Shown here: positions 1-28,981 of the stretch, piece by piece | Layout of the letters: each line of letters starts with the position of its first letter | Position numbering within the stretch: position 1 is the stretch's first letter | Virus record (IMG/VR): IMGVR_UViG_2654587686_000018 | Coordinates: 1-31,892 of that record | Length of the DNA stretch: 31,892 nt | Source: a virus | Lineage: Duplodnaviria; Heunggongvirae; Uroviricota; Caudoviricetes | Strand: one strand, 5' to 3' | Notes under the pieces: model-generated | What the model was told of the DNA's origin: nothing | The model's input: only the letters and a program-made list of their open reading frames with translations | Databases searched by the model: none | Position numbers and translations under genes: made by a program

Positions 1-492
1 AATGTATTCTAGCTTGGCGTTTGAATTATTTGATTGTTTGATTTCAAGTAATAATTCTGAAAGAACATTCTCATCTTGTGTTTTTTCGAATAAAATGTAA
101 GAGAAGAAAGAATGTTCTTTATAATAATCAACATTATTATTCTCCCTTATGAACTCAAGGAAAACATTTTTTGCTTCTTTAACTTTATTTTCTTCCAATA
201 ACGACTCTACAGGTAAAAACCAGTGAGTGTCCTTTCTTTCTTGTATATCAGTTGAAGGTGGGGTATCTAAATTTCCTGTTTCGTCTAGGTTATCATCATT
301 CGATATGGATTGATTTTCATCAGTTTCAAAAGTGAGCGGGCCCGCATTCATTTTTAATTTTTTTGCAGAGATTAATTTATTAATGAGTGATTTTAATTGC
401 TTATGATAAACTACTGCGATGACAATACAAAGAATTGGCCATAGAGAAAATTTTAATGCCGTGTCTATGAGTGAGTACATTTCAGGTGTCAT
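1..492 (-). CDS. hypothetical membrane-anchored protein, 5' part only (ORF runs off the window start); AT-rich accessory gene
   Basis: My own translation of the minus strand from the ATG at 490-492: MTPEMYSLIDTALKFSLWPILCIVIAVVYHKQL..., open to position 1. One N-terminal hydrophobic helix. Very AT-rich compared with the neighbouring phage genes. Same strand as CI and 14 bp downstream of its stop. Absent from the ORF track because it has no stop inside the window. Confidence 0.5.
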   Translation of the reverse strand, partial: MTPEMYSLIDTALKFSLWPILCIVIAVVYHKQLKSLINKLISAKKLKMNAGPLTFETDENQSISNDDNLDETGNLDTPPSTDIQERKDTHWFLPVESLLEENKVKEAKNVFLEFIRENNNVDYYKEHSFFSYILFEKTQDENVLSELLLEIKQSNNSNAKLEYI

Positions 493-506
493 ACCCTACG
501 TCCTGT

Positions 507-1064
507 TTAGATGAATGATTTTTTTATGTTCGCTTTGAAATTCAGATCTTTTATAGGGCAGTCAAAGGAAATATCATCCTTAGTCACCCTAACTGAGTTA
601 TTAGGTATACGCGATACATTTCTTATACTAAATTTTTCATCAATACTCAGAAGCCACTTGCCATCGGTAATATCTTCAAAAAATGAATCAGCAATGAATA
701 TGTTGTTATTTTCTTCGATAACAATGGGGCTGACAATATTTTTAGGTAGTATTGTTTTATCAAAAAAAACAGTTCCGGCATCATATAGATTTCCATCAAC
801 TATTTTTTGCTTATGCAATCTTAGAATGTCCTGCCTTTCTATATCAAAAACAGGACCATTACCGTTAACTAGCCAGGTCAGTGATGCTCCTGTTTGTAAA
901 GCGCATGTAATTACCCAATCTGATGGGAAAATATCTCTCATGTATCTAGTGGCAAGGGTGCTTTTCGATACACCCAAGTGATCGGCTAGCGCCTGCCGTG
1001 TGGTGAAACCATATGCTTCAACCAATCTCTCGATAACTTTTCGCCCACCACTGTTGAAATCCAT
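507..1064 (-). CDS. prophage repressor, coliphage 186 CI-like
   Basis: 185 aa with an N-terminal helix-turn-helix (AYGFTTRQALADHLGVSKSTLATRYMRD) and a pattern I recall from 186 CI. Good SD (aagggga) before the ATG at 1062-1064. Divergent from the rightward early operon. Confidence 0.7.
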   Translation of the reverse strand: MDFNSGGRKVIERLVEAYGFTTRQALADHLGVSKSTLATRYMRDIFPSDWVITCALQTGASLTWLVNGNGPVFDIERQDILRLHKQKIVDGNLYDAGTVFFDKTILPKNIVSPIVIEENNNIFIADSFFEDITDGKWLLSIDEKFSIRNVSRIPNNSVRVTKDDISFDCPIKDLNFKANIKKSFI

Positions 1065-1192
1065 TGCTTCCCCTTGGAATCTAATCGTTCTTGACAGATT
1101 CCAAAAGCGATCATAACATCACATCGAAAGTTCGCTTTCGGAATCTTCGCTTGTTAACACTATTAATCCTTGCTCACCACAAGCAGATCAAC
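1065..1192. promoter_or_regulatory. immunity switch region: candidate rightward lytic promoter plus operator-like repeats
   Basis: Perfect -35 TTGACA at 1091-1096, 17-bp spacer, -10-like TAACAT at 1114-1119. GGAATCT at 1076-1082 and 1140-1146, its reverse complement AGATTCC at 1096-1102. Palindrome CGAAAG-N4-CTTTCG at 1125-1140. Confidence 0.4.
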
Positions 1193-1429
1193 ATGGAATC
1201 ATGCATTATGAATCAACACATTTCAATCGCAATTACAACTCCACATGTAACTATTGAACGCTATAGTGAACTTACTGGTTTGTCGGTGGAGACTATCAAC
1301 GACATGTTGGCCGATGGACGGCTCATAAGGCATCGACTACGCAAAGATAAAAAGCGTGAAAAAGTGATGATTAACATCGCAGCCATGACAATAGATGCAC
1401 TTTCTAACAGCAACGTAATCATTAGTTAG
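1193..1429 (+). CDS. Apl/Cox-like small DNA-binding regulator or excisionase (start uncertain: ATG 1193 or 1208)
   Basis: First gene rightward from the switch. HTH-like segment ERYSELTGLSVETINDMLADGRL. The track ORF starts at a TTG at 1091 that coincides with the -35 hexamer, so an internal ATG is more likely. Confidence 0.45.
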   Translation: MESCIMNQHISIAITTPHVTIERYSELTGLSVETINDMLADGRLIRHRLRKDKKREKVMINIAAMTIDALSNSNVIIS

Positions 1430-1461
1430 TTCGATTTTGAGAACTTTTGGAGGCGTTGGCT

Positions 1462-1965
1462 ATGTTTGACTATCAAACTTCTAAACATGCTCACTTTGAT
1501 GCGGCTTGCCGAGCATTTGCAATTGAACACAATCTGGAAGATGTGGCCGCTGCCGTTGGCATGAGGCCGCAGATTCTGCGCAACAAATTGAATCCAGCAC
1601 AGCCGCACCGTTTAACCTGTGACGAGCTTTTAGCTATTACGGATTACACCGAAGATGCGCGTTTACTGGATGGAATGCTGGGGCAGATTAACTGCCTTCC
1701 ATCCGTACCGGTGAACAATGCTACAGAAGGCAACATGCAGTTGTGTGCACTGAGTGCCACAGCCAGTGTGGGCGCAATTGCTGGGGAAGCCGTATCAACT
1801 GGTCATATGACCGCCGCCCGCCGTACACAAATTCTGGATCGCGCTCGCGATGCAATCCGTAGCTTATCCGTGCTGGCTTATACCGTTGAAAGCCGTATCC
1901 AGTCTGCGCCTGTTCTGGCCGCAGCGGTGGATCTGGTGACGGCTAACGCCACAGGCTTGATATGA
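1462..1965 (+). CDS. CII-like transcriptional activator (186 CII family)
   Basis: ATG at 1462 preceded by GGAGG at 1449-1453. N-terminus MFDYQTSKHAHFDAACRAFA...LRNKLNPAQPH matches what I recall of 186 CII. Sits immediately after the Apl-like gene as in 186. Confidence 0.6.
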   Translation: MFDYQTSKHAHFDAACRAFAIEHNLEDVAAAVGMRPQILRNKLNPAQPHRLTCDELLAITDYTEDARLLDGMLGQINCLPSVPVNNATEGNMQLCALSATASVGAIAGEAVSTGHMTAARRTQILDRARDAIRSLSVLAYTVESRIQSAPVLAAAVDLVTANATGLI

Positions 1966-1974
1966 GGGAGCACC

Positions 1975-2202
1975 ATGAAAGCGTTTGTTACTTACCTGAA
2001 AAAAGAATCACCAGCCATGCAACGACCAAGCGGTTCAACGGGCTGGATAGAACTGCCGAACGGTCAGCGCTGGAATCCTGGCCACACGTATAAATTCAAT
2101 GCGCATGAGTCTGTTCGAATGAAAGGCGAGGTGGTTTTACGTTTCTTGCCTACAAAAGTCCGTCGCCTGGTTGGGTGTATAGGGGGGCGCTATGGCGATT
2201 AG
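1975..2202 (+). CDS. hypothetical early protein (75 aa)
   Basis: ORF with SD (gaggga) before the ATG; tightly packed in the early operon. Confidence 0.5.
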   Translation: MKAFVTYLKKESPAMQRPSGSTGWIELPNGQRWNPGHTYKFNAHESVRMKGEVVLRFLPTKVRRLVGCIGGRYGD

Positions 2203-2620
2203 CCAGGAACAACAAAAGCGCGGACTGGAACATTTAAAACAGATCCGCCGCAAATACTTCAGTGAAAGCAGCGAGGCCGCTGAATGGTGGGACAACCTGA
2301 CACCGGAGTGGCGCGGCGTGGTGCTTCATGCCGCTGCGGTTACTTCTGGCGCCAGGGCATTTAAAGCCCACTTAAGCAAGTGCTGCTGGCGTGAGCTTTA
2401 TGAACGCCTGGGCTATCGGGACATGATTGTGCTGCGCCAGGGCATTTCACGGGCGCGGTTAACGTTTGATGGTTTCGGCAGTTTACGTGACAGCGATTTT
2501 TCGAAGCGCACCGCGAACCGTCCGATCAAGAAGGTACATCCAATTTATAGCAGTAGCGGGGTGCAGATGGTAATCGCGCCTCATATCGTCCAAAAGTTGC
2601 AGCAACAGGGGAATCACTAA
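2192..2620 (+). CDS. hypothetical early protein (142 aa)
   Basis: ORF whose start overlaps the end of the previous gene, suggesting translational coupling. Confidence 0.5.
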   Translation: MAISQEQQKRGLEHLKQIRRKYFSESSEAAEWWDNLTPEWRGVVLHAAAVTSGARAFKAHLSKCCWRELYERLGYRDMIVLRQGISRARLTFDGFGSLRDSDFSKRTANRPIKKVHPIYSSSGVQMVIAPHIVQKLQQQGNH

Positions 2621-3021
2621 TGACCATTATTTCCGTCGAGGGTAAATCGTTGGGGGCAGAGTTGGCTGTGTGGGGAGTCCCGCATAACTACGCTTTGGCA
2701 TTTGCAGAGAAAAGCACCAGTAAAAATGGTCGCATTGCGTTGCATCCATTCTTCTTTAATGACACTGAGCACATGACTAATCCGCGTCACTGGCTGGCAG
2801 TCAATGCCGCTTTCTGGTGCTGCGTGTACCGCGAGGCCGAAAGCAAAGAAGCACAGATTGAAGCGCTGGCTGGAATCCGCGCCATTTTCTATACGGCCGG
2901 TGCGCTGGGTGTTGGCGAAATTAAAGCACTGATCCAGGAGTGGTGGCGGACAACGTACGAGCTGCACCTTATTCCAGCACCGAACCATTCCGCCGTCGCT
3001 GTACAACCCGCTTTTCACTAA
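2620..3021 (+). CDS. hypothetical early protein (133 aa)
   Basis: ATG overlaps the upstream stop (TAATG). Confidence 0.5.
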   Translation: MTIISVEGKSLGAELAVWGVPHNYALAFAEKSTSKNGRIALHPFFFNDTEHMTNPRHWLAVNAAFWCCVYREAESKEAQIEALAGIRAIFYTAGALGVGEIKALIQEWWRTTYELHLIPAPNHSAVAVQPAFH

Positions 3022-3088
3022 TTAACAACCTGAATTTTTTGGTCACAGCTTAGGTGGCCGGGGATTCTTTTGCCTTAAGGAAACCAAA

Positions 3089-3322
3089 ATGCACATGACA
3101 CGTCAGGATTTACCCGCAACGAAATCAGGTACTGACCTTCTGGCCATGCTCACCAAAGCCACACAGGAAGGTAAAGCCGCTGCTGCTGATCTGTGTTCCA
3201 CCCGTCTGGATAAGCTGGCCACCCATGCAGCCAATGAAGGTTTAAGCGCAACTGAAGTCATTGAGTTAATCCGCGAAGAAGCCGCAGCGATTTGCAGTAA
3301 GGGCGGTGCAGCATGGCAGTAA
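3089..3322 (+). CDS. hypothetical early protein (77 aa)
   Basis: ORF with SD (aagga) upstream; alanine-rich, predicted helical. Confidence 0.5.
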   Translation: MHMTRQDLPATKSGTDLLAMLTKATQEGKAAAADLCSTRLDKLATHAANEGLSATEVIELIREEAAAICSKGGAAWQ

Positions 3323-4182
3323 AAACTCCGCTTAAGTGGGTGGGCAGCAAAGCCCGCCTTATGCCGCAGTTGCTTCCCCATCTGCCGGAGGGTAAGCGCC
3401 TGATAGAACCTTTTGCCGGTTCCTGTGCTGTCATGATGAATACGGATTATGACGAGTATCTGATAGCTGATGTGAATCCTGACCTTGTTAATCTGTATAA
3501 GACGATGGCTTATCACACTGATGCATTGCTCATTGAGCTGGAGGCTTTATTTTCTGCCGGTTCATTAGGTGATGAAGAAAACCGGGCAATTTTCTATTAC
3601 GCGGTACGTGATGCCTTCAACCACTCCGGCAAATCCTTTGGTTCTGAATCTGTGGAAGCTGCGGCGCGTTTTCTTTATCTGAACCGTCACTGCTTCAATG
3701 GCCTGTGCCGATACAATCGCCGTGGCCAGTTCAATGTTCCGTTTGGTAAGTACAAAAAAACCTACTTTCCTGCTGATGAAATCCGCGCTTTTGCAGAAAA
3801 AGCGAAACGTGCAACGTTCATTACTGCCCACTATTCAGAAACGCTTGATTTGGTAAGGGACGGGCATGACGTTGTTTATTGTGATCCGCCTTACCTGACT
3901 GATACCGACAATTTCACCGCGTACCATGAGCGCGGTTTTTCTCACATGGATCAGGGGCGGCTGGCGCGTAAGCTGCGCCGCCTGGCTGAGCGTGGGATTA
4001 AGGTTGTCGCGTCAAACAGCGATCTGGAAATGGTGCATTACCTGTATGCAGGATTTGACGCTGTGCGGGTAAATGCCCCACGCAGTGTGGGTGCAGCAGC
4101 TGCAAGCCAGAAAGTTGCCGCAGAGCTGATTCTTAAGTCACCTGCAAACCCGGCGATCGGCGTTAGGGCGGTGGTGGCATGA
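3313..4182 (+). CDS. DNA adenine methyltransferase, Dam-like (N6-adenine, D12 class)
   Basis: N-terminus MAVKTPLKWVGSKARL and motifs EPFAGSCAV and DPPY are characteristic of Dam-family enzymes. No restriction endonuclease gene nearby. Confidence 0.85.
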   Translation: MAVKTPLKWVGSKARLMPQLLPHLPEGKRLIEPFAGSCAVMMNTDYDEYLIADVNPDLVNLYKTMAYHTDALLIELEALFSAGSLGDEENRAIFYYAVRDAFNHSGKSFGSESVEAAARFLYLNRHCFNGLCRYNRRGQFNVPFGKYKKTYFPADEIRAFAEKAKRATFITAHYSETLDLVRDGHDVVYCDPPYLTDTDNFTAYHERGFSHMDQGRLARKLRRLAERGIKVVASNSDLEMVHYLYAGFDAVRVNAPRSVGAAAASQKVAAELILKSPANPAIGVRAVVA

Positions 4183-4391
4183 TGGCGGAAATAATCACCG
4201 GCATTTATGCCTTGTTTGCCTGTATCACTTTCGTTTTTCTCTTATGGGACGAATGCAAGGATGAATTTGATCACGATGCTGAGGACTTAGGGTTAATCAC
4301 TCTGAGTGCGGTTTTCTGGCTACCGCTGGTAGCAGCCGTACTTGTGGCCTTCCTGATTGATTTCTGGCGGCAGTGGGTTAACCGTGGATGA
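4179..4391 (+). CDS. small hypothetical membrane protein (70 aa, two hydrophobic helices)
   Basis: ORF overlapping the methyltransferase stop; two hydrophobic stretches. Confidence 0.45.
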   Translation: MMAEIITGIYALFACITFVFLLWDECKDEFDHDAEDLGLITLSAVFWLPLVAAVLVAFLIDFWRQWVNRG

Positions 4392-4392
4392 T

Positions 4393-6408
4393 ATGCTGGA
4401 GCCTGGCCAACACCACGTCGTCAATGCCTGGCGGCGTGAAACCTTTGCGCCTGGCACTCCTTCAGATGCAACGATCACAGAACGCCGTTTGTGGGCTGTA
4501 AACCCACTGGATTATGAATGGCGTTCCCAGTACCTGCATGAAATACCCGACTGGTTAGCCGGGTATTTTGGCAACCGTTACGAAAAGCTGCTGGCTGGTC
4601 TTGACGGGCGTCGCCGTGCCAATACATTCCTGCGCAAAACTATCGGCGGGAATGTATTGCCACGTCTGCGCAAAGTGGCTGCACGTTACAAGCTGGCCGC
4701 TGATGCACTTGATCTTCCTTTCGGTAAGTCGCTGGAGCGACTGCCGTCACTTGACCGCCCGGAACTCAAAAAACTGGCTGGCCAGATATCTGGCTGGATC
4801 TCCCAGTCACTTTATGACTTCACCGATCAGTTTGTGGGCAGCACTGACGATGCCGCAGAGCTGCGCCGCCGTACGCTGGAGTCTTACGGCCATTTATGCA
4901 CGTGCTCCCTGATGCTGAACAATCAACCGCCGTACTGGGCTGAACATGAAGCCAATGGCGGACAACTGGAAACGCGTAAGGCTGAATCCGGGATTCTTCG
5001 CATGATGGCACCTGAATGGTGGTATCTGCGTCTTAAGCGGGCGCGTGATATGCAGCGTGAGCATATGGCCATTGCCGTAGGGCAGGTACAGAAAGCCGCC
5101 AGTGCTTATGTGTCACGTAAAACCCTGGGTGAATGGATAGACCAGAAAAAGCGGAACCTTGAGTTCTTTAAAAAGTTTGACCTGCTGAATGATGAAGGGC
5201 TGCGTATTGCACTGGACAGTATGGTGCACCGCAGCGTTGCTAATCCGGCGATCCGTCGCTGTGAGCTAATGGTAAGAATGAGAGGGTTTGAAGATATGGC
5301 CAATGAAGAAGGGCTGGCCGGTGAGTTTTACACCATCACCGCGCCATCACGATTCCATGCGGTACACAGCAAAGGAGGCTTTGTTTCACAATGGGATGGC
5401 TGCACCCCGCAGGACACCCAGCGCTACTTATGTGGCGTATGGGCGAAAGCCCGCGCCGCTATTTCCCGCGCAGGTATCCATGTTTTTGGTTTTCGTGTGG
5501 TAGAGCCTCACCACGATGGGACACCGCACTGGCATATGCTGCTTTTTATGCGTCCTGGTGACGTGGATACCGTGCGCGATATTCTTTGCTATCAAGCCAG
5601 AATTACCGACTCCGAAGAACTGCAAACGCCAAACGCGCTAAAGGCACGTTTCCATGTTGAAGCCATCGATCCCGCTAAAGGTTCGGCTACAGGTTATATC
5701 GCCAAATACATATCCAAAAACATTGATGGATTTGCGCTGGATGGTGAGCAGGATGATGAAACAGGGGAAAATCTGCGGGATATGGCCAAATCCGTTTCTG
5801 CATGGGCTTCACGCTGGCGCATTCGCCAGTTTCAGCAGATTGGTGGTGCGCCGGTGACAGTCTGGCGTGAGCTGCGTCGGTTGCGTGATCAGGTACTGAC
5901 TGACCGCAGAATGGATGCGGTTCTGGCTGCTGCGGATGTTGGGGACTGGGCTGCATACACCCAGGCACAGGGTGGCGCACTGGTTGCCCGCCGTGATCTG
6001 GTTGTTCGTCTGGCTTATGAAATTACAGAGCAGGGCAATGAATATGCAGAGGACGTGCAGCGCGTTCAGGGTGTCTATTCTCCATTGGTTCCAGATTCAG
6101 CGGTATGTACGCGTCTGGTGAAGTGGCAGAAGGTCGCGAAGTTGGCCGAAGCGCCAGCGGAGGCGGGTTTTTCTGGCGGCAACGCCGCCCCTTGGAGTTC
6201 TGTCAATAACTGTACGGAGGGTGGAACCCGCAGACGGTTAAAACTGGAATTGCGAAGCCGGGGTTTTGAAGGTTCTGACGATGAAATAGCCATTCTCATG
6301 CGGGGTAGTGGTTTGAGATTTGGCCAGGCGGCGTTGATTTACCGTAATGGCAGGTTACAGGAGACACGAAACGAGCCAATGCACGAGCTGTGGCCGGGGT
6401 GGTTGTAG
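4393..6408 (+). CDS. replication initiation endonuclease (P2 gpA / 186 RepA-like rolling-circle initiator)
   Basis: HUH-type motif HHDGTPHWHMLLF and catalytic tyrosine motif GYIAKYISKN. Track ORF begins at TTG 4357; the in-frame ATG at 4393 directly follows the upstream stop and is preferred. Confidence 0.85.
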   Translation: MLEPGQHHVVNAWRRETFAPGTPSDATITERRLWAVNPLDYEWRSQYLHEIPDWLAGYFGNRYEKLLAGLDGRRRANTFLRKTIGGNVLPRLRKVAARYKLAADALDLPFGKSLERLPSLDRPELKKLAGQISGWISQSLYDFTDQFVGSTDDAAELRRRTLESYGHLCTCSLMLNNQPPYWAEHEANGGQLETRKAESGILRMMAPEWWYLRLKRARDMQREHMAIAVGQVQKAASAYVSRKTLGEWIDQKKRNLEFFKKFDLLNDEGLRIALDSMVHRSVANPAIRRCELMVRMRGFEDMANEEGLAGEFYTITAPSRFHAVHSKGGFVSQWDGCTPQDTQRYLCGVWAKARAAISRAGIHVFGFRVVEPHHDGTPHWHMLLFMRPGDVDTVRDILCYQARITDSEELQTPNALKARFHVEAIDPAKGSATGYIAKYISKNIDGFALDGEQDDETGENLRDMAKSVSAWASRWRIRQFQQIGGAPVTVWRELRRLRDQVLTDRRMDAVLAAADVGDWAAYTQAQGGALVARRDLVVRLAYEITEQGNEYAEDVQRVQGVYSPLVPDSAVCTRLVKWQKVAKLAEAPAEAGFSGGNAAPWSSVNNCTEGGTRRRLKLELRSRGFEGSDDEIAILMRGSGLRFGQAALIYRNGRLQETRNEPMHELWPGWL

Positions 6409-24965: not shown

Positions 24966-25482
24966 TGGTGAGGCTATCCAGCTGAAAAATATGCGCGTGA
25001 CCGTCTCGCAGCAGTTTCAGGATAAAGACCAGTCCGGCCAGACAAGTGCCACAACCAAATCAGAACAGGGGGCAAAAGGGAAAGAGCTGCGTATCAGTGG
25101 CGAAATTCCGTTTAAAAGCCCGGAGATCCTGAAGCGTATTTTCGAACTGGCCAGCGCCACGGATGCCGGAGGCAACCGCCAGAAATACCGCGTGGCGCAT
25201 GAAGTGGCCAGAGCCGTGAATTTTCGTGAGGCGACATTCAGCGGAATGCTTGATGCCCCGCAGCAGGACGGGAAAATGGCCTGGCTGGTCACGTTTACGC
25301 TGGCAGAACATATCAGCGTGCAGGAAAAGCGGGAAGCCAGGGCAACAGGCAAAACGTCTGCCAAAAAACAGACGGCCGGTAATGCGGGACAATCCGGTGG
25401 CCAGAGTGCCGGGGAAGATGAAGAAAAACTGACGTGGTTTGAAAAACGGGTACTGAAACCCGTCAATGATGCTTTGGGTTAA
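24937..25482 (+). CDS. hypothetical tail-associated protein
   Basis: 181 aa, start overlaps the previous gene, SD (aaaggga) upstream. Confidence 0.45.
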   Translation: MTSIPTLALNGEAIQLKNMRVTVSQQFQDKDQSGQTSATTKSEQGAKGKELRISGEIPFKSPEILKRIFELASATDAGGNRQKYRVAHEVARAVNFREATFSGMLDAPQQDGKMAWLVTFTLAEHISVQEKREARATGKTSAKKQTAGNAGQSGGQSAGEDEEKLTWFEKRVLKPVNDALG

Positions 25483-27185
25483 TGATGAAACCAGTTAAAC
25501 GCCTGTACCTTTCAACGGATGAAGTTCACCTGGCGGATGCCAGCCTGGTGCTGGAGCTGAACAGCTGCGGCCGGGGATTTATCACTGTACAGACAGCCAC
25601 GGATTACACCGGGAAACTGGTGCGGCTGGATGTGGGGTATTCCGATCTGCTTTTGCGCTGGTTTACTGGTTATGTGGAACGCTCACAACCCGCCGAAAAC
25701 GGTTTTCAGCGTCTGTTTGTGCGCGAGCTGGTCGGCGTGTTTGAAAGGATGTGGCCATGTTCATTTCAGCACCCCACTTTGCGCAAGGTAGCCAGCTGGC
25801 TGGAGGAAAACAGCGGAATTGCTGTCAGTGTGCCGGATGCCCCTTACAGCGATAAACCGATCCCCCATTTCACCCACAACGGCACAGGCTATCAGTTGCT
25901 GAATAATCTGGGCAGGGCGTTCAGTATCCCGGATTACATCTGGTACCAGCTGCCGGATGGTTCCCTGCATGTGGGCGGCGCGGAAAAAGCGATGTTTGCC
26001 GGTCGCCCGGTCGATATCCCGGCAGAGTTTAGCCTGGGGGCGGCTGGCGGTAATTCCATGACGCTGCCGGTGATCCAGAGTCTGCGGCCGGGTGTGGAGC
26101 TGAACGGGGAGCGTGTGACCAAAGTTCATCTGACCAATGACACAATGGCTGTTACCTGGACACCCAGAAACCGTGCAACAGGTCAGCCATTACAGAAAAC
26201 ACCTGCACAGCGCCAGATTGAAAGCAATTACCCGGAACTGGCTTCCGGGCTGCATCTGCCAAAACTGGCCAGAGTGGTGGCACCCAGCGAGGCTGTGAAA
26301 AGTGGTAATTTTGCCGATCCGTTCCGGCCGCGCTATGCCGTTGATGTGCAGCTGCTTGATGCAGACGGCAACCCGGACAACCAGACACCGGTTTATTCTG
26401 CGGTGCCGCTGCCGGTACCTATGGCCGGGAATGACTCTGGCATGTTCCAGTTCCCGCCAGAAGGGACGCTGGTTGAAGTGGCGTTTACCGGAGGTCGCCC
26501 GGATAAACCGTTTATCAGGCAGACGTTGCCAGATGGTACCAGTCTGCCGGATGTTAAACCCGGCGAGCAGCTGCAACAGCAACGGGCGGAAGTGTCGCAA
26601 CGTGTTACCCAGGCTGGCGATTGGGTACGGCAGACCGATCAGACCATCAGCGAAACATCGATGGCGCGGACGGTTAAAGCCGATACGGAACAGCGTGATT
26701 TGGTCAGCCGTGAAACCACGGTTAAAGCCACCGACAAAACCACGGTTCTGGGTACCGCCACCCTGTTGGCCGGTGCCATCCAGCAGGTCAGCGCCGGGGA
26801 TTTTAGCCAGGCCGTGAAGGGCAACAGACTGGCCAGCATTGAAGGCAATGACGAAACCGATATTTCCGGGAAACAGTCCACTAAGGTGGCCGGAGCCGTG
26901 GATGTTGATGTGGGGGGAACCCTGACTGAAAAGATTGCTGCATTACGTAAATCGGTGGCGGCGGGCGGTCAGCAGATTATGGGACCAACCGTCCATATTG
27001 GCAGTGAGAGCGTCAACACGCTGACTATGATGCTGGACACTATTGATTTACTGGCCGAGCTGGCGCAGCAGTGTGCGAGCCATTCACACCCCAGTGTTGG
27101 TACGCCAACCAATGCCGGGGCATTCACACAGACGGCGGAGAAGGCCGGACAGACCCGAAGTAAGTACCAGAAAATAATCGCCTGA
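25482..27185 (+). CDS. baseplate central spike protein (gpV / gp5 / VgrG-like OB fold) with C-terminal extension
   Basis: FPPEGTLVEVAFTGGRPDKPFI matches the spike OB-fold motif (FxPxxGxxVxVxFxxGxxDxPxI). C-terminal HSHP is reminiscent of the HxH tip of P2 gpV. Confidence 0.5.
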   Translation: MMKPVKRLYLSTDEVHLADASLVLELNSCGRGFITVQTATDYTGKLVRLDVGYSDLLLRWFTGYVERSQPAENGFQRLFVRELVGVFERMWPCSFQHPTLRKVASWLEENSGIAVSVPDAPYSDKPIPHFTHNGTGYQLLNNLGRAFSIPDYIWYQLPDGSLHVGGAEKAMFAGRPVDIPAEFSLGAAGGNSMTLPVIQSLRPGVELNGERVTKVHLTNDTMAVTWTPRNRATGQPLQKTPAQRQIESNYPELASGLHLPKLARVVAPSEAVKSGNFADPFRPRYAVDVQLLDADGNPDNQTPVYSAVPLPVPMAGNDSGMFQFPPEGTLVEVAFTGGRPDKPFIRQTLPDGTSLPDVKPGEQLQQQRAEVSQRVTQAGDWVRQTDQTISETSMARTVKADTEQRDLVSRETTVKATDKTTVLGTATLLAGAIQQVSAGDFSQAVKGNRLASIEGNDETDISGKQSTKVAGAVDVDVGGTLTEKIAALRKSVAAGGQQIMGPTVHIGSESVNTLTMMLDTIDLLAELAQQCASHSHPSVGTPTNAGAFTQTAEKAGQTRSKYQKIIA

Positions 27186-27290: not shown

Positions 27291-27623
27291 ATGAAAAATT
27301 TCATTATGTTAGCTGTAGGCGCAGCAGTTTCATTCAATGTGTTAGCCGCTGAAGTTTTTACTGTGCCAACGGATACGAAGGCTAGCTATACGGTCTTAGA
27401 GAAGACGCGTACCGGTGATATGGCTACGATAACAACCAAGAGAGAGGGACCATCTGGAGTGTCATATTCTAAGCGCTTGTACGACTGTACGGCCTCGACG
27501 GTCAAGTATCTTGGAAGCGGTGACACTATAGAGCAAATGAATGGCTCAGCACCAGATCCAAATATGGCACCTATAATTGACCGTTCAATTGCATACTATG
27601 TTGGTCAGAAAGCCTGCCGATAA
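27291..27623 (+). CDS. moron: small secreted/periplasmic protein of unknown function (110 aa)
   Basis: Signal-peptide-like N-terminus MKNFIMLAVGAAVSFNVLA-AEV. Two cysteines in the mature part. AT-richer than the tail genes. Bracketed by two terminators. Confidence 0.6.
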   Translation: MKNFIMLAVGAAVSFNVLAAEVFTVPTDTKASYTVLEKTRTGDMATITTKREGPSGVSYSKRLYDCTASTVKYLGSGDTIEQMNGSAPDPNMAPIIDRSIAYYVGQKACR

Positions 27624-27665
27624 CCATAGCTTCATATCAGTTGATATAAATTGAGTATTCCGCTA

Positions 27666-27688
27666 ACCCGCATAATGCGGGTTTTTTT
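27666..27688 (+). terminator. intrinsic terminator after the moron
   Basis: ACCCGC-ATAAT-GCGGGT hairpin followed by TTTTTTT. Confidence 0.7.
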
Positions 27689-28191
27689 GTGCCTGTTAAC
27701 AGGCGGCACAGAACGCACACTGTACGCATTGCAATGCTCAGATACCACACGAGACACATCAATAGGATCAAGTGCACAGCGAAGCACTGACGGCTCTACA
27801 TGCTGACAAAAGAAATACTTCACAGACAAAAACGGCACTACACCGCACCCGCCTGCGGTTTCTGGATCGATAAAATTTTTCAGTTTTCTTTTCCTACAAA
27901 CCAGACCGCCGGACAGCGCCAGTTCTGGCTGATTGCGGGAAATCTCCAACTGAAAAAATTGAAAGGAATTTCAGTGATTTTCAGTAAAAAGGATCTCTCA
28001 AGAAATTGAAGGATTGTGTAAGTTACAGATAAATAATGGAAAAAATAATTTTAGATGATTGCTTGGATGCTAATAGCGCAGGGAATTATTTATAACGAAT
28101 AGCCCGCAGTGTTAAGCTGGGGGCGGGCTAGAGTATGCATGTTGGCATTTTACCTGCTGAAAAAATGAAGAATCTAACGTCGTAAATAAAA

Positions 28192-28554
28192 TTACTCTGT
28201 TTTAGGGCAGACTATTCCTTCTTGTCTCATTTTGGCTATAAAACCAACCCCATCCCCTGTAAGGTGACTTCCATCATCTTCCAGGATACCGTCATCTCTG
28301 CCGGCACTGAGTGGAGCGCTATAAATTTCCTTATGGAACAACAGGCAAGCTCTCCCAACACCTTGCTTTTTGCATTTATCAAGGCCTAAATTCGTAATGT
28401 GATACAGTACATAAGGTGGATGTGGAAGCTCAACCTCTCTAAACACAATGCTACCAACGGCCTTGCCATCAAGACGAACTTCAATTTCAAGGCCTGAGTG
28501 ATTAACTAGTTGATACTCAACACCTCTTTTTGATTCGAAAATAGAAGTTTCCAT
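28192..28554 (-). CDS. hypothetical protein, possibly a minimal GNAT-like fold (second gene of an AT-rich cassette)
   Basis: 120-aa ORF with SD GGGAG about 9 nt upstream. Segment KKQGVGRACLL resembles the acetyl-CoA-binding motif A (Q/R-x-x-G-x-G/A) of GNAT enzymes, but the protein is short for that fold. Confidence 0.5.
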   Translation of the reverse strand: METSIFESKRGVEYQLVNHSGLEIEVRLDGKAVGSIVFREVELPHPPYVLYHITNLGLDKCKKQGVGRACLLFHKEIYSAPLSAGRDDGILEDDGSHLTGDGVGFIAKMRQEGIVCPKTE

Positions 28555-28582
28555 ATCTTTTCTCCCTATATGTAAGATAAAT

Positions 28583-28981
28583 TTATTTCTCTTCGCACTC
28601 CTGCTTAGTTTTGTTATTGATAGATATTGCTGCGCATTTGTCTAGTAATAACATGCACTTATCAATATCATCTGCTTTTCTGAGTTTTACTCGTGTTACA
28701 CCTTGGTTGTTGTCAAGTGTGGAACATATCATTTCAATTTCTATGTCATTTCGATTGAATAATCCCATAATAGTTTTAGCTACCTCTCTGCTTTTTTCTA
28801 CAATATCAAACACTAAGGATAGCTTATCTGGTGCTTTTTCAGAAAAACAAAGCACTTTGCTCAGAGGCAAATTATTATGAGAAAAGTGTCCTTTGACTTC
28901 CTCTAGAAGTTCTTGGGAGGTGTAGATGGTGATTCCTGCGAATTGTCCTAGGTGGAGAGCATTTTGTCTTGTTCTGGTCAT
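28583..28981 (-). CDS. hypothetical protein (first gene of an AT-rich two-gene cassette)
   Basis: 132-aa ORF with SD AAGGA about 7 nt upstream; 28-bp gap to the downstream gene; no family recognised. Confidence 0.5.
   Translation of the reverse strand: MTRTRQNALHLGQFAGITIYTSQELLEEVKGHFSHNNLPLSKVLCFSEKAPDKLSLVFDIVEKSREVAKTIMGLFNRNDIEIEMICSTLDNNQGVTRVKLRKADDIDKCMLLLDKCAAISINNKTKQECEEK

What the first reader, a model, noticed from the sequence alone, without database searches (positions are those of the whole stretch)
1975..3322. Four consecutive small early genes with no recognisable family
Four translationally coupled ORFs of 75, 142, 133 and 77 aa lie between the CII-like gene and the methyltransferase. 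In 186 the corresponding interval holds host-takeover genes (fil, a division inhibitor, and dhr, a replication inhibitor), so these may be host-shutoff or anti-defence proteins. I cannot assign any of them by sequence.
Basis: inference. Interest (0 to 1): 0.4.

Follow-up and report, generated by a model that had tools for sequence, protein, structure and literature searches.

The report
Conserved early-gene block of a P2/186-like prophage
The four small genes are real and belong to the conserved early operon of a P2/186-type prophage: one is a Fil-family gene, one a DUF2732-family gene, one a distant single-repeat relative of the P2 replication protein B, and one a tightly linked helical protein of unknown function, so this is mostly ordinary phage biology with one modest new homology.

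Summary
ORFs at 1975-2202, 2192-2620, 2620-3021 and 3089-3322 (+) are real genes with Shine-Dalgarno sequences and dN/dS of about 0.04-0.37. They keep the same order in 12 related loci from eight genera.

"No recognisable family" is half wrong:
- ORF1 passes the Pfam threshold for Phage_186_Fil.
- ORF4 passes the Pfam threshold for DUF2732 (186 CP79, P2 Orf80).
- ORF2 and ORF3 have no Pfam, NCBIfam, PADLOC or PDB match.

ORF2 links through intermediates (Yersinia phage 324 gp07, Vibrio K139 orf3) to the N-terminal repeat of P2 gpB, the protein reported to bind host DnaB. hhalign gives about 85% probability, E about 6e-6, roughly 10 sd above shuffled controls. A direct comparison is not significant.

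ORF3 is a confident helical model with no specific structural match. An ORF3-like gene directly follows the B-like gene in 69 of 71 viral contigs.

Only three of four junctions overlap. The 67-nt ORF3-ORF4 gap holds the sequence homologue of the 186 tR1 terminator. No Dhr homologue is present.

The best reading is a core early module for cell division and replication, not a variable anti-defence cassette. Interest is low to moderate.

The parts
1462..1965 (+). Context: cII-like activator gene. The ATG at 1462 follows RefSeq annotation of the 96%-identical prophage; the ORF listing extends the ORF to a TTG at 1447.
   Evidence: PF06892 Phage_CP76, E 1e-46; RefSeq 'phage regulatory CII family protein'
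1975..2202 (+). ORF1, 75 aa, pI 10.3: Fil-family protein, homologue of the phage 186 fil cell-division inhibitor.
   Evidence: PF10893, 38.9 bits against gathering score 25, residues 1-37. phrog_7623 and phrog_816 'cell division inhibitor'. 39% identity over 33 aa to 186 Fil. Shared motif F..L.K.SP.M....GWI...G.RW.P. dN/dS 0.09-0.37.
2192..2620 (+). ORF2, 142 aa, pI 10.1: single-repeat, distant relative of P2 replication protein B (gpB-like). The helical core spans residues ~5-90 and the C-terminal tail is poorly predicted.
   Evidence: No Pfam, NCBIfam, PADLOC or PDB hit. phrog_33841. hhalign of A1 against the gp07-like family: 99.5%, E 4e-22. gp07-like or merged profile against the P2 B family: about 85%, E 6e-6. 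Shuffle and reverse controls. hmmsearch hit on P2 B at E 2e-6. AF2 pLDDT 69. dN/dS 0.04-0.22.
2620..3021 (+). ORF3, 133 aa, pI 6.4: conserved Trp-rich alpha-helical protein (phrog_3935) of unknown function, tightly linked to the B-like gene.
3039..3074 (+). Terminator-like hairpin (GGTCAC-7 nt-GTGGCC) followed by GGGGATTCTTTTGCC. It is the sequence homologue of 186 tR1 and of the putative P2 terminator after gene B.
   Evidence: Terminator scan hit at 3036-3064. Fold (the energy alone is not exceptional, z -0.45). The stem is conserved while the loop varies, and pair 6 is C-G, U-G or U-A in 11 loci. Same sequence frame as 186 tR1 and the P2 terminator.
3089..3322 (+). ORF4, 77 aa: DUF2732-family protein, homologue of 186 CP79 and P2 Orf80. 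Its homologue in 186 is annotated as non-essential with unknown function.
   Evidence: PF10809, 48.9 bits against gathering score 25. 32% identity over 66 aa to the 186 protein. 186 and P2 annotations. dN/dS 0.06-0.16.
3313..4182 (+). Context: Dam-type N6-adenine DNA methyltransferase gene, overlapping the ORF4 stop by 10 nt. It is present in only some related loci.
   Evidence: PF02086, E 2e-66; presence or absence across loci
4393..6408 (+). Context: replication endonuclease gene A (rolling-circle nickase). ORF2 is proposed to assist the replication it initiates.
   Evidence: 46% identity to 186 A; RefSeq 'replication endonuclease'

Best explanation
The interval is the promoter-proximal core of the early lytic operon of a temperate P2/186-family (Peduoviridae, Quadragintavirus-like) prophage integrated in an enterobacterial chromosome. 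It is transcribed rightward after cox/apl and cII.

It has two parts, separated by a tR1-type partial terminator.

Upstream of the terminator:
1. A Fil-family protein. By homology to 186 Fil, it is expected to block host cell division when the lytic operon is on.
2. A basic 142-aa protein that is a one-repeat, highly diverged relative of P2 gpB. It most likely binds the host DnaB helicase and helps bring it onto the DNA nicked by the A protein, for lagging-strand synthesis.
3. A 133-aa helical protein, translationally coupled to the B-like gene and almost always encoded right after it. It most likely acts with the B-like protein as a non-enzymatic partner or adaptor in replication or helicase capture.

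Downstream of the terminator:
4. The DUF2732 protein shared with P2 (Orf80) and 186 (CP79). Its homologue in 186 is annotated as dispensable with unknown function.

What is shown: the genes are real, ORF1 and ORF4 belong to their families, ORF2 has a remote link to gpB, the terminator is homologous to tR1, and the synteny is conserved. What is inferred: every biochemical activity, and in particular any role for ORF3.
For: Real genes and conserved order.

Fil and DUF2732: Pfam scores above the gathering thresholds. RefSeq and INPHARED use the same names. Pairwise similarity to the 186 proteins. Shared Fil motif.

ORF2 to gpB chain:
- The ORF2 profile matches Yersinia phage 324 gp07, annotated 'replication protein GpB', at 98.5%, E 3e-15.
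- A full-library HMM search finds only small (~113-158 aa) relatives.
- The ORF2 family against the gp07-like family gives 99.5%, E 4e-22.
- The gp07-like or merged profile against the P2 B family gives 85%, E 6e-6 over 70 columns, onto B residues 14-100.
- Real scores are 37.3 and 34.9. 150 column shuffles give mean 12.7-12.9, sd 2.4-2.5, max 21. The reversed control scores 13-17.
- Plain hmmsearch hits P2 B at E 2e-6. The P2 B profile hits the Vibrio B-like proteins at about 1e-4.
- P2 B and the intermediates share phrog_14551, 602 and 5349.
- The two halves of P2 B are internal repeats (84%, E 7.5e-6). A one-repeat homologue is therefore plausible.

Distribution: no P2-type B occurs anywhere in the window or in the ORF2 loci. 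Phage 186 has neither gene.

Position: gene B in P2, dhr in 186 and ORF2-ORF3 here all end at the same homologous terminator followed by the DUF2732 gene.

ORF3 linkage: it lies 7-17 nt after the B-like gene in 69/71 IMG/VR loci whose B-like identity spans 33-99%. It is also present with a B-like gene in Vibrio K139, PV94 and yong1.

P2 B binding to DnaB is known from Odegrip et al. 2000. That paper is cited in PMC4887207 and PMC11087808 but was not readable here.
Against: The direct comparison of the ORF2 family with the P2 B family is not significant (E 0.064, and it aligns to the other repeat). The link is transitive and rests on about 70 columns of low-complexity helical sequence.

Precomputed Pfam shows no PF26815 (the P2 B family) on ORF2-family proteins.

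ORF2 has one repeat plus an unrelated tail, whereas gpB has two repeats. Which part of gpB contacts DnaB is not known to me.

The ORF2 model is only moderately confident (pLDDT 69), and no gpB structure exists to compare it with.

The 'GpB' label on Yersinia gp07 is a depositor annotation with no evidence I could trace.

ORF3 has no informative homologue or fold match. It is not strictly co-inherited with the B-like gene: SMHB1 and ValB1MD-2 have the B-like gene without ORF3, and a Vibrio cyclitrophicus prophage has ORF3 without a detectable B-like gene. The IMG/VR sample was drawn with a single peptide pattern and is therefore biased.

The activity of Fil itself is known only from a GenBank note ('overexpression blocks cell division'). 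Only the N-terminal 37 residues match the Pfam model.
Confidence: 0.55

Rival explanations
1. ORF2 and/or ORF3 are host-takeover proteins that functionally replace 186 Dhr. They would depress host DNA replication, for example by sequestering DnaB or another replisome component, rather than promote phage replication.
For: ORF2 and ORF3 occupy the slot between fil and the tR1-type terminator that dhr occupies in 186. They are co-expressed with a Fil homologue. A DnaB-binding protein can both load and sequester the helicase; lambda P does both (established knowledge). The gpB relationship therefore does not exclude host inhibition.
Against: Neither ORF is similar to Dhr. Dhr belongs to a separate PHROG, 6069. 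The only characterised relative found, P2 gpB, is annotated as an essential replication protein needed for lagging-strand synthesis. The strict conservation of the pair across 33-99% divergence fits a core function better than an accessory one.
Confidence: 0.15
2. ORF2 and/or ORF3 are anti-defence proteins, or superinfection-exclusion or defence morons, carried in the early operon.
For: They are small early genes of unknown function with no curated family. The ORF3 fold has no specific match, as is common for anti-defence proteins. P2-like prophages are known carriers of defence cargo (established knowledge).
Against: PADLOC gives no hit, though that library covers defence rather than anti-defence. 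The genes sit in a fixed position with a fixed order in nearly all relatives and are under strong purifying selection. Anti-defence and defence cargo is typically patchy and located in hotspots. GC and GC3 match the neighbouring core genes. ORF2 has a traceable relationship to a replication protein.
Confidence: 0.1
3. The ORF2 to gpB similarity is a chance match between helical low-complexity profiles. ORF2 and ORF3 would then form an independent two-gene unit of unrelated function, for example a small DNA-binding regulator and its partner acting on early or late transcription.
Confidence: 0.15

Closest known systems
Phage 186 Fil (Pfam PF10893 Phage_186_Fil; formerly DUF2724)
   Same: ORF1 has the same length (75 aa) and the same position directly after cII. 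It scores above the Pfam gathering threshold, shares the N-terminal SP..GWI..G.RW.P motif, and has a basic C-terminal tail.
   Different: Only residues 1-37 match the model. The C-terminal half is unrelated to 186 Fil and varies in length (62-75 aa) among relatives. PHROGs places ORF1 in its own family, 7623. The activity is untested.
P2 replication protein B (gpB; PF26815, phrog_235), reported to interact with host DnaB helicase
   Same: Remote profile-level homology of the ORF2 superfamily to gpB residues ~14-100. Both are early-operon genes upstream of the homologous terminator and the DUF2732 gene. ORF2 and P2-type B were never found together in the loci examined.
   Different: gpB is 166 aa with two internal repeats. 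ORF2 is 142 aa with one repeat plus an unrelated tail. There is no direct significant match and no PF26815 hit on the ORF2 family. ORF2 is followed by ORF3, which P2 lacks.
Yersinia phage vB_YenM_324 gp06-gp09 and Vibrio phage K139 orf3/orf5 (also PV94 gp08/gp10 and Kappa KP7/KP9)
   Same: The Yersinia phage has the same block: cII - fil - B-like - ORF3-like - DUF2732 - A. The Vibrio phages carry homologues of both ORF2 and ORF3 in the same operon after cII.
   Different: The sequences are very divergent (ORF2 about 15-30% identity, ORF3 about 21-50%). The Vibrio phages have one or two extra genes between the pair and no Fil. All are annotated hypothetical except the Yersinia 'GpB' label.
DUF2732 (PF10809): P2 Orf80 and 186 CP79
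   Same: ORF4 passes the Pfam threshold, has the same length (77 aa as in 186), and is likewise the first gene after the tR1-type terminator.
   Different: Nothing notable. The function is unknown in all members, and the homologue in 186 is annotated as non-essential.
Phage 186 Dhr (depressor of host replication)
   Same: dhr occupies the same slot between fil and tR1.
   Different: It has no sequence similarity to ORF2 or ORF3. It is 66 aa and belongs to a different PHROG, 6069.

Membership tests
Phage_186_Fil (PF10893) | Profile HMM score at or above the Pfam gathering threshold | tested here: met
   38.9 bits against a cut-off of 25, E 7e-10, residues 1-37 onto profile positions 1-34 of 56
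Phage_186_Fil (PF10893) | Conserved N-terminal motif shared with 186 Fil, and position directly downstream of cII | tested here: met
   Alignment of 12 orthologues with 186 Fil and Yersinia gp06; gene maps
Phage_186_Fil (PF10893) | Overexpression blocks cell division (filamentation) | not testable with these tools
   Known for 186 only from the record note
DUF2732 (PF10809) | Profile HMM score at or above the gathering threshold | tested here: met
   48.9 bits against a cut-off of 25, residues 8-67 onto profile positions 6-67 of 75; 32% identity to 186 CP79
P2 gpB (PF26815 / phrog_235) | Direct significant profile match to the gpB family | tested here: not met
   hhalign of the ORF2 family against the B family gives E 0.064, probability 0.9%. 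ORF2-family proteins carry no precomputed PF26815. PF26815 is absent from the local Pfam copy.
P2 gpB (PF26815 / phrog_235) | Homology detectable through intermediate sequences (superfamily level) | tested here: met
   A1 to A4: 99.5%. A4 and A5 to A3: about 85%, E 6e-6. Controls. Reciprocal HMMER hits. Shared PHROGs.
P2 gpB (PF26815 / phrog_235) | Two-repeat architecture of about 166 aa | tested here: not met
   The halves of gpB align to each other. ORF2 aligns to one repeat only and has a different tail.
P2 gpB (PF26815 / phrog_235) | Binds host DnaB and is required for lagging-strand synthesis | not testable with these tools
186 Dhr (phrog_6069) | Sequence similarity to Dhr | tested here: not met
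   BLASTP finds no alignment for ORF2 and E 12 for ORF3
Known anti-phage defence systems (PADLOC-DB) | Match to any defence-system protein model | tested here: not met
   No hit at E<=1 for any of the four ORFs

The most novel reading that the evidence does not exclude
ORF2 and ORF3 together form an undescribed two-protein helicase-hijacking module that is widespread in cII-type Peduoviridae, from Vibrio K139 to E. coli prophages. ORF2 would be a minimal one-repeat gpB-like DnaB binder. ORF3 would be an obligate partner that either bridges DnaB to the A-nicked origin or neutralises the host loader DnaC. The second option parallels the loader-plus-loader-inhibitor pair of S. aureus phage 77 (PMC4887207). 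If so, P2 gpB would be a duplicated, self-sufficient derivative of this module.
Probability: 0.15. Interest if true: 0.55.

Novelty: new member of a known kind. Interest (0 to 1): 0.3.

Why it matters
In practical terms, two of the four "unknowns" are already nameable and the block is core phage biology. It should not be prioritised as an anti-defence candidate.

The modest new content has three parts:
- A family of small proteins annotated hypothetical (phrog_33841, 5349, 14551 and 602, including Vibrio K139 orf3) appears to be a one-repeat relative of P2 gpB.
- gpB itself appears to be an internal duplication.
- A second orphan family (phrog_3935, ORF3) is almost always encoded next to the B-like gene.

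If ORF2 does engage DnaB, this would show how 186-like (cII/fil-type) phages that lack a P2-type B obtain a helicase. It would also give a defined two-gene system for studying non-AAA+ helicase capture. 186 itself is reported to depend on host dnaA and dnaC (Hooper and Egan 1981, from my own knowledge, not checked here).

Tried and rejected
ORF2 and ORF3 searches that gave nothing:
- Pfam, NCBIfam and PADLOC.
- PDB sequence-profile searches. ORF2 had no match and ORF3 only chance matches at E>0.4.
- Foldseek of ORF3 against BFVD viral structures. Nothing at E<=0.001.
- The AFDB50 library was unavailable.

Ideas tested and rejected:
- HD-hydrolase for ORF3: no conserved metal-binding residues.
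- ORF3 related to gpB or to ORF2: hhalign probability below 1%.
- Dhr homology.
- DUF5347 as the Pfam home of the Vibrio B-like proteins, as one phage record claims: not reproduced.
- An NCBIfam model for 'replication protein B': none hits P2 B or the intermediates.
- The antisense 133-aa ORF over ORF3 as coding: not conserved.

Other dead ends:
- Rfam scan of 900-4500: only sub-threshold noise.
- The folding energy of the intergenic hairpin is not exceptional on its own (z -0.45). The case for a terminator rests on conservation and on homology to tR1.
- Literature searches for DUF2732, 186 fil/dhr and vB_YenM_324 returned nothing useful.
- Odegrip et al. 2000 is not held in the library.
- The search for related loci with the diverse ORF3 alignment failed for lack of a conserved peptide stretch.
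Full report
**What the window is.** The window is a P2/186-type prophage. Its left 12 kb is 96% identical to a prophage of E. coli EcPF15 that lies next to rcdA/ybjJ. It is about 88% identical to Escherichia phages ESSI2_ev040, ev129 and ev015 (Peduoviridae, Quadragintavirus). Host genes ybjL and ybjM lie at the right end. The early region reads as follows:
- cI (507-1064, minus strand)
- cox/apl-like (1208-1429)
- cII (1462-1965)
- the four ORFs
- dam (3313-4182)
- a 70-aa membrane protein (4179-4391)
- replication gene A (4393-6408)

**Checking the observation.** All four ORFs are at the stated coordinates.
- Each has a Shine-Dalgarno-like sequence upstream.
- GC and GC3 resemble the neighbouring genes.
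- Pairwise dN/dS against 12 related loci is 0.04-0.37 while dS is often saturated, so all four are translated and under purifying selection.
- The equally long antisense ORF over ORF3 is interrupted by 1-5 stops in relatives and is not a gene.
- The order cII - ORF1 - ORF2 - ORF3 - ORF4 is identical in loci from eight enterobacterial genera. What follows ORF4 varies: dam may be present or absent, and extra exonuclease genes may occur.

The "translationally coupled" description is right for ORF1/ORF2 (11-nt overlap), ORF2/ORF3 (TAATG) and ORF4/dam (10-nt overlap). It is wrong for ORF3/ORF4, which are 67 nt apart.

**The ORF3-ORF4 spacer.** The spacer is more conserved than the flanking coding sequence, with 77% mean column identity across 11 loci.
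- It contains a hairpin, GGYCAY-loop-RTGGCC, with a variable loop. Pair 6 is C-G, U-G or U-A in different loci.
- The hairpin is followed by GGGGATTCTTTTGCC and then the ORF4 ribosome-binding site.
- The same sequence frame (TAATTAA ... hairpin ... GGGCATTCTTTTGCC ... ATG) is the annotated tR1 terminator of 186 between dhr and CP79. It is also the putative rho-independent terminator of P2 between B and orf80.

So the four ORFs are not one unit. ORF1-3 fill the variable slot between cII (or cox in P2) and tR1. ORF4 is the first gene after tR1. The folding energy alone is unremarkable (z -0.45). The terminator assignment rests on homology and conservation and is not shown functionally.

**ORF1 and ORF4 have families.**
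- ORF1 scores 38.9 bits on PF10893 Phage_186_Fil (gathering score 25) and also hits the PHROG 'cell division inhibitor' family 816. It shares the N-terminal motif F..L.K.SP.M....GWI...G.RW.P with 186 Fil and has a basic tail of variable length.
- ORF4 scores 48.9 bits on PF10809 DUF2732. It is 32% identical to 186 CP79, which the 186 record annotates as 'unknown function; not essential'. P2 Orf80 belongs to the same family.
- RefSeq already uses both names in the EcPF15 prophage.

**ORF2.** No curated library recognises ORF2. Word-indexed and exhaustive HMM searches of billions of proteins found only small 'hypothetical' proteins from Enterobacteriaceae, plus a shell of more distant proteins of 113-158 aa.

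One of these distant proteins is essentially gp07 of Yersinia phage vB_YenM_324. It sits between that phage's fil and an ORF3 homologue, and its depositors labelled it 'replication protein GpB'. I tested that label step by step:
1. The ORF2 family and the gp07-like family are clearly homologous (hhalign 98.5-99.5%, E 3e-15 to 4e-22).
2. The gp07-like family, and a merged ORF2+gp07-like profile, match a P2 gpB family alignment at about 85% probability, E about 6e-6. The match covers about 70 columns and maps ORF2 residues 25-106 onto gpB residues 28-100.
3. Controls support this. Real scores are 37.3 and 34.9. 150 column-shuffled gpB alignments give mean 12.7-12.9, sd 2.4-2.5 and max 21. Reversed alignments score 13-17.
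4. Plain HMMER agrees in both directions. The merged ORF2 profile hits P2 B at E 2e-6 in a 2220-ORF set, and the P2 B profile hits Vibrio PV94 gp08 and K139 orf3 at about 1e-4.
5. P2 B and the intermediates hit the same PHROGs: 14551, 602 and 5349.
6. The two halves of gpB align to each other (84%, E 7.5e-6). gpB therefore looks like a tandem duplication of the unit that ORF2 carries once.

Three results weaken the link. The direct comparison of the ORF2 family with the gpB family is not significant. ORF2-family proteins carry no precomputed PF26815. The ORF2 model is only moderately confident, and no gpB structure exists to compare it with.

I therefore file ORF2 as a probable superfamily-level relative of gpB (about 75%), not as a member of the gpB family.

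Distribution fits this reading. No P2-type B occurs in the window or in any ORF2 locus. Phage 186 has neither a B-like nor an ORF3-like gene. From my own knowledge, not checked here, 186 is reported to rely on host dnaC.

**ORF3.** The AlphaFold model is confident (pLDDT 85.6, pTM 0.80). It shows a small beta/alpha N-terminal part followed by a three-helix bundle.
- BFVD gives nothing.
- Distant homologues exist in Yersinia phage 324 and in Vibrio phages PV94, yong1, K139 (orf5, apparently frameshifted) and Kappa. The conserved core is EAL..IRALF...WWR...LH..P, with no catalytic-looking residues.

The most informative fact about ORF3 is linkage. I fetched 71 IMG/VR contigs through the B-like motif, with B-like identity spanning 33-99%. 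In 69 of them an ORF3-like gene starts 7-17 nt after the B-like stop. Of the two exceptions, one contig is truncated. The full order cII - fil - B-like - ORF3 - DUF2732 - A is seen in 57 contigs.

The linkage is not absolute. Salinivibrio SMHB1 and Vibrio ValB1MD-2 have a B-like gene without ORF3. A Vibrio cyclitrophicus prophage has ORF3 without a detectable B-like gene. The IMG/VR sample is biased by the search pattern. I infer, without direct evidence, that ORF3 is a non-enzymatic partner acting in the same process as ORF2.

**Mechanism proposed.** After derepression, rightward transcription expresses cox/apl, cII, Fil, the B-like protein and ORF3. A fraction of transcripts pass the tR1-type terminator to reach DUF2732, dam and A.
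- Fil is expected to delay host division.
- A nicks the origin.
- The B-like protein, possibly together with ORF3, is proposed to recruit host DnaB for lagging-strand synthesis, as reported for P2 gpB (record note; Odegrip et al. 2000, cited).

The anatomy and the homologies are shown. All activities are inferred.

**Rivals.** A DnaB-binding protein could equally act as a Dhr-like depressor of host replication. An anti-defence role for ORF3 cannot be excluded. The gpB link could be spurious, leaving a small basic protein, possibly DNA-binding, and its partner. Each rival is less well supported (see the rival explanations).

**Verdict.** The finding is real but largely ordinary. It describes a conserved early-operon block of a well-known phage family. 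Two members are already in Pfam. One is newly connected, at superfamily level, to a known replication protein. One is a structurally orphan but tightly linked partner. I rate the novelty as a new member of a known kind and the interest as about 0.3.

Noticed in passing
window 1-495 (minus strand); compare L003:1909-3495: The first ~500 bp are very AT-rich (GC 0.34). In the 96%-identical EcPF15 prophage they correspond to the 5' part of a 528-aa 'tetratricopeptide repeat protein' gene inserted between int and cI. This is a likely cargo or defence-type moron at the int-cI junction. ESSI2_ev040 carries an 'abortive infection family protein' near the same end.
   Followed up: no
window 4179-4391 (+): A 70-aa hydrophobic, acidic ORF (GRAVY 0.92, pI 4.1) is wedged between dam and gene A and overlaps the dam stop. 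RefSeq annotates it as hypothetical. It is only 29-41% conserved in some relatives and absent in others.
   Followed up: partly
window 27291-28981 (both strands): Four small ORFs (110, 105, 120 and 132 aa) have no Pfam match. They lie in a low-GC stretch (0.38-0.43) between the last phage tail gene (25482-27185, gpD/Gp5-like) and host ybjL/ybjM. They are probably prophage-end cargo genes.
   Followed up: partly
L016:1959-2456 (P2 gene B): The N- and C-terminal halves of P2 gpB align to each other (hhalign 84%, E 7.5e-6). gpB therefore appears to be an internal tandem duplication of a ~60-70 aa helical unit. PHROGs v4 lists the gpB family (phrog_235) as 'unknown function'.
   Followed up: partly
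L017:5009-5457 (Vibrio phage K139 orf5 region): The ORF3-like gene of K139 (and Kappa KP9) matches the ORF3 profile in two different reading frames. This suggests a frameshift, either a pseudogene or a sequencing error, in these reference genomes.
   Followed up: no
L001:4354-5276 versus window 3313: Between DUF2732 and dam, ESSI2_ev040-type phages carry two extra genes that this prophage lacks: a DnaQ-like exonuclease subunit and a gene annotated 'RNA-binding protein'. The region downstream of ORF4 is the truly variable part of the early operon.
   Followed up: partly
L019:4561-5004 and 3199-3738 (Vibrio cyclitrophicus prophage): Depositor notes match neighbours of the ORF3-like gene to ORFd and ORFb of retron Ec67. 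This reflects the known residence of that retron in a P2/186-like prophage. This prophage has an ORF3-like gene but no detectable B-like gene.
   Followed up: no
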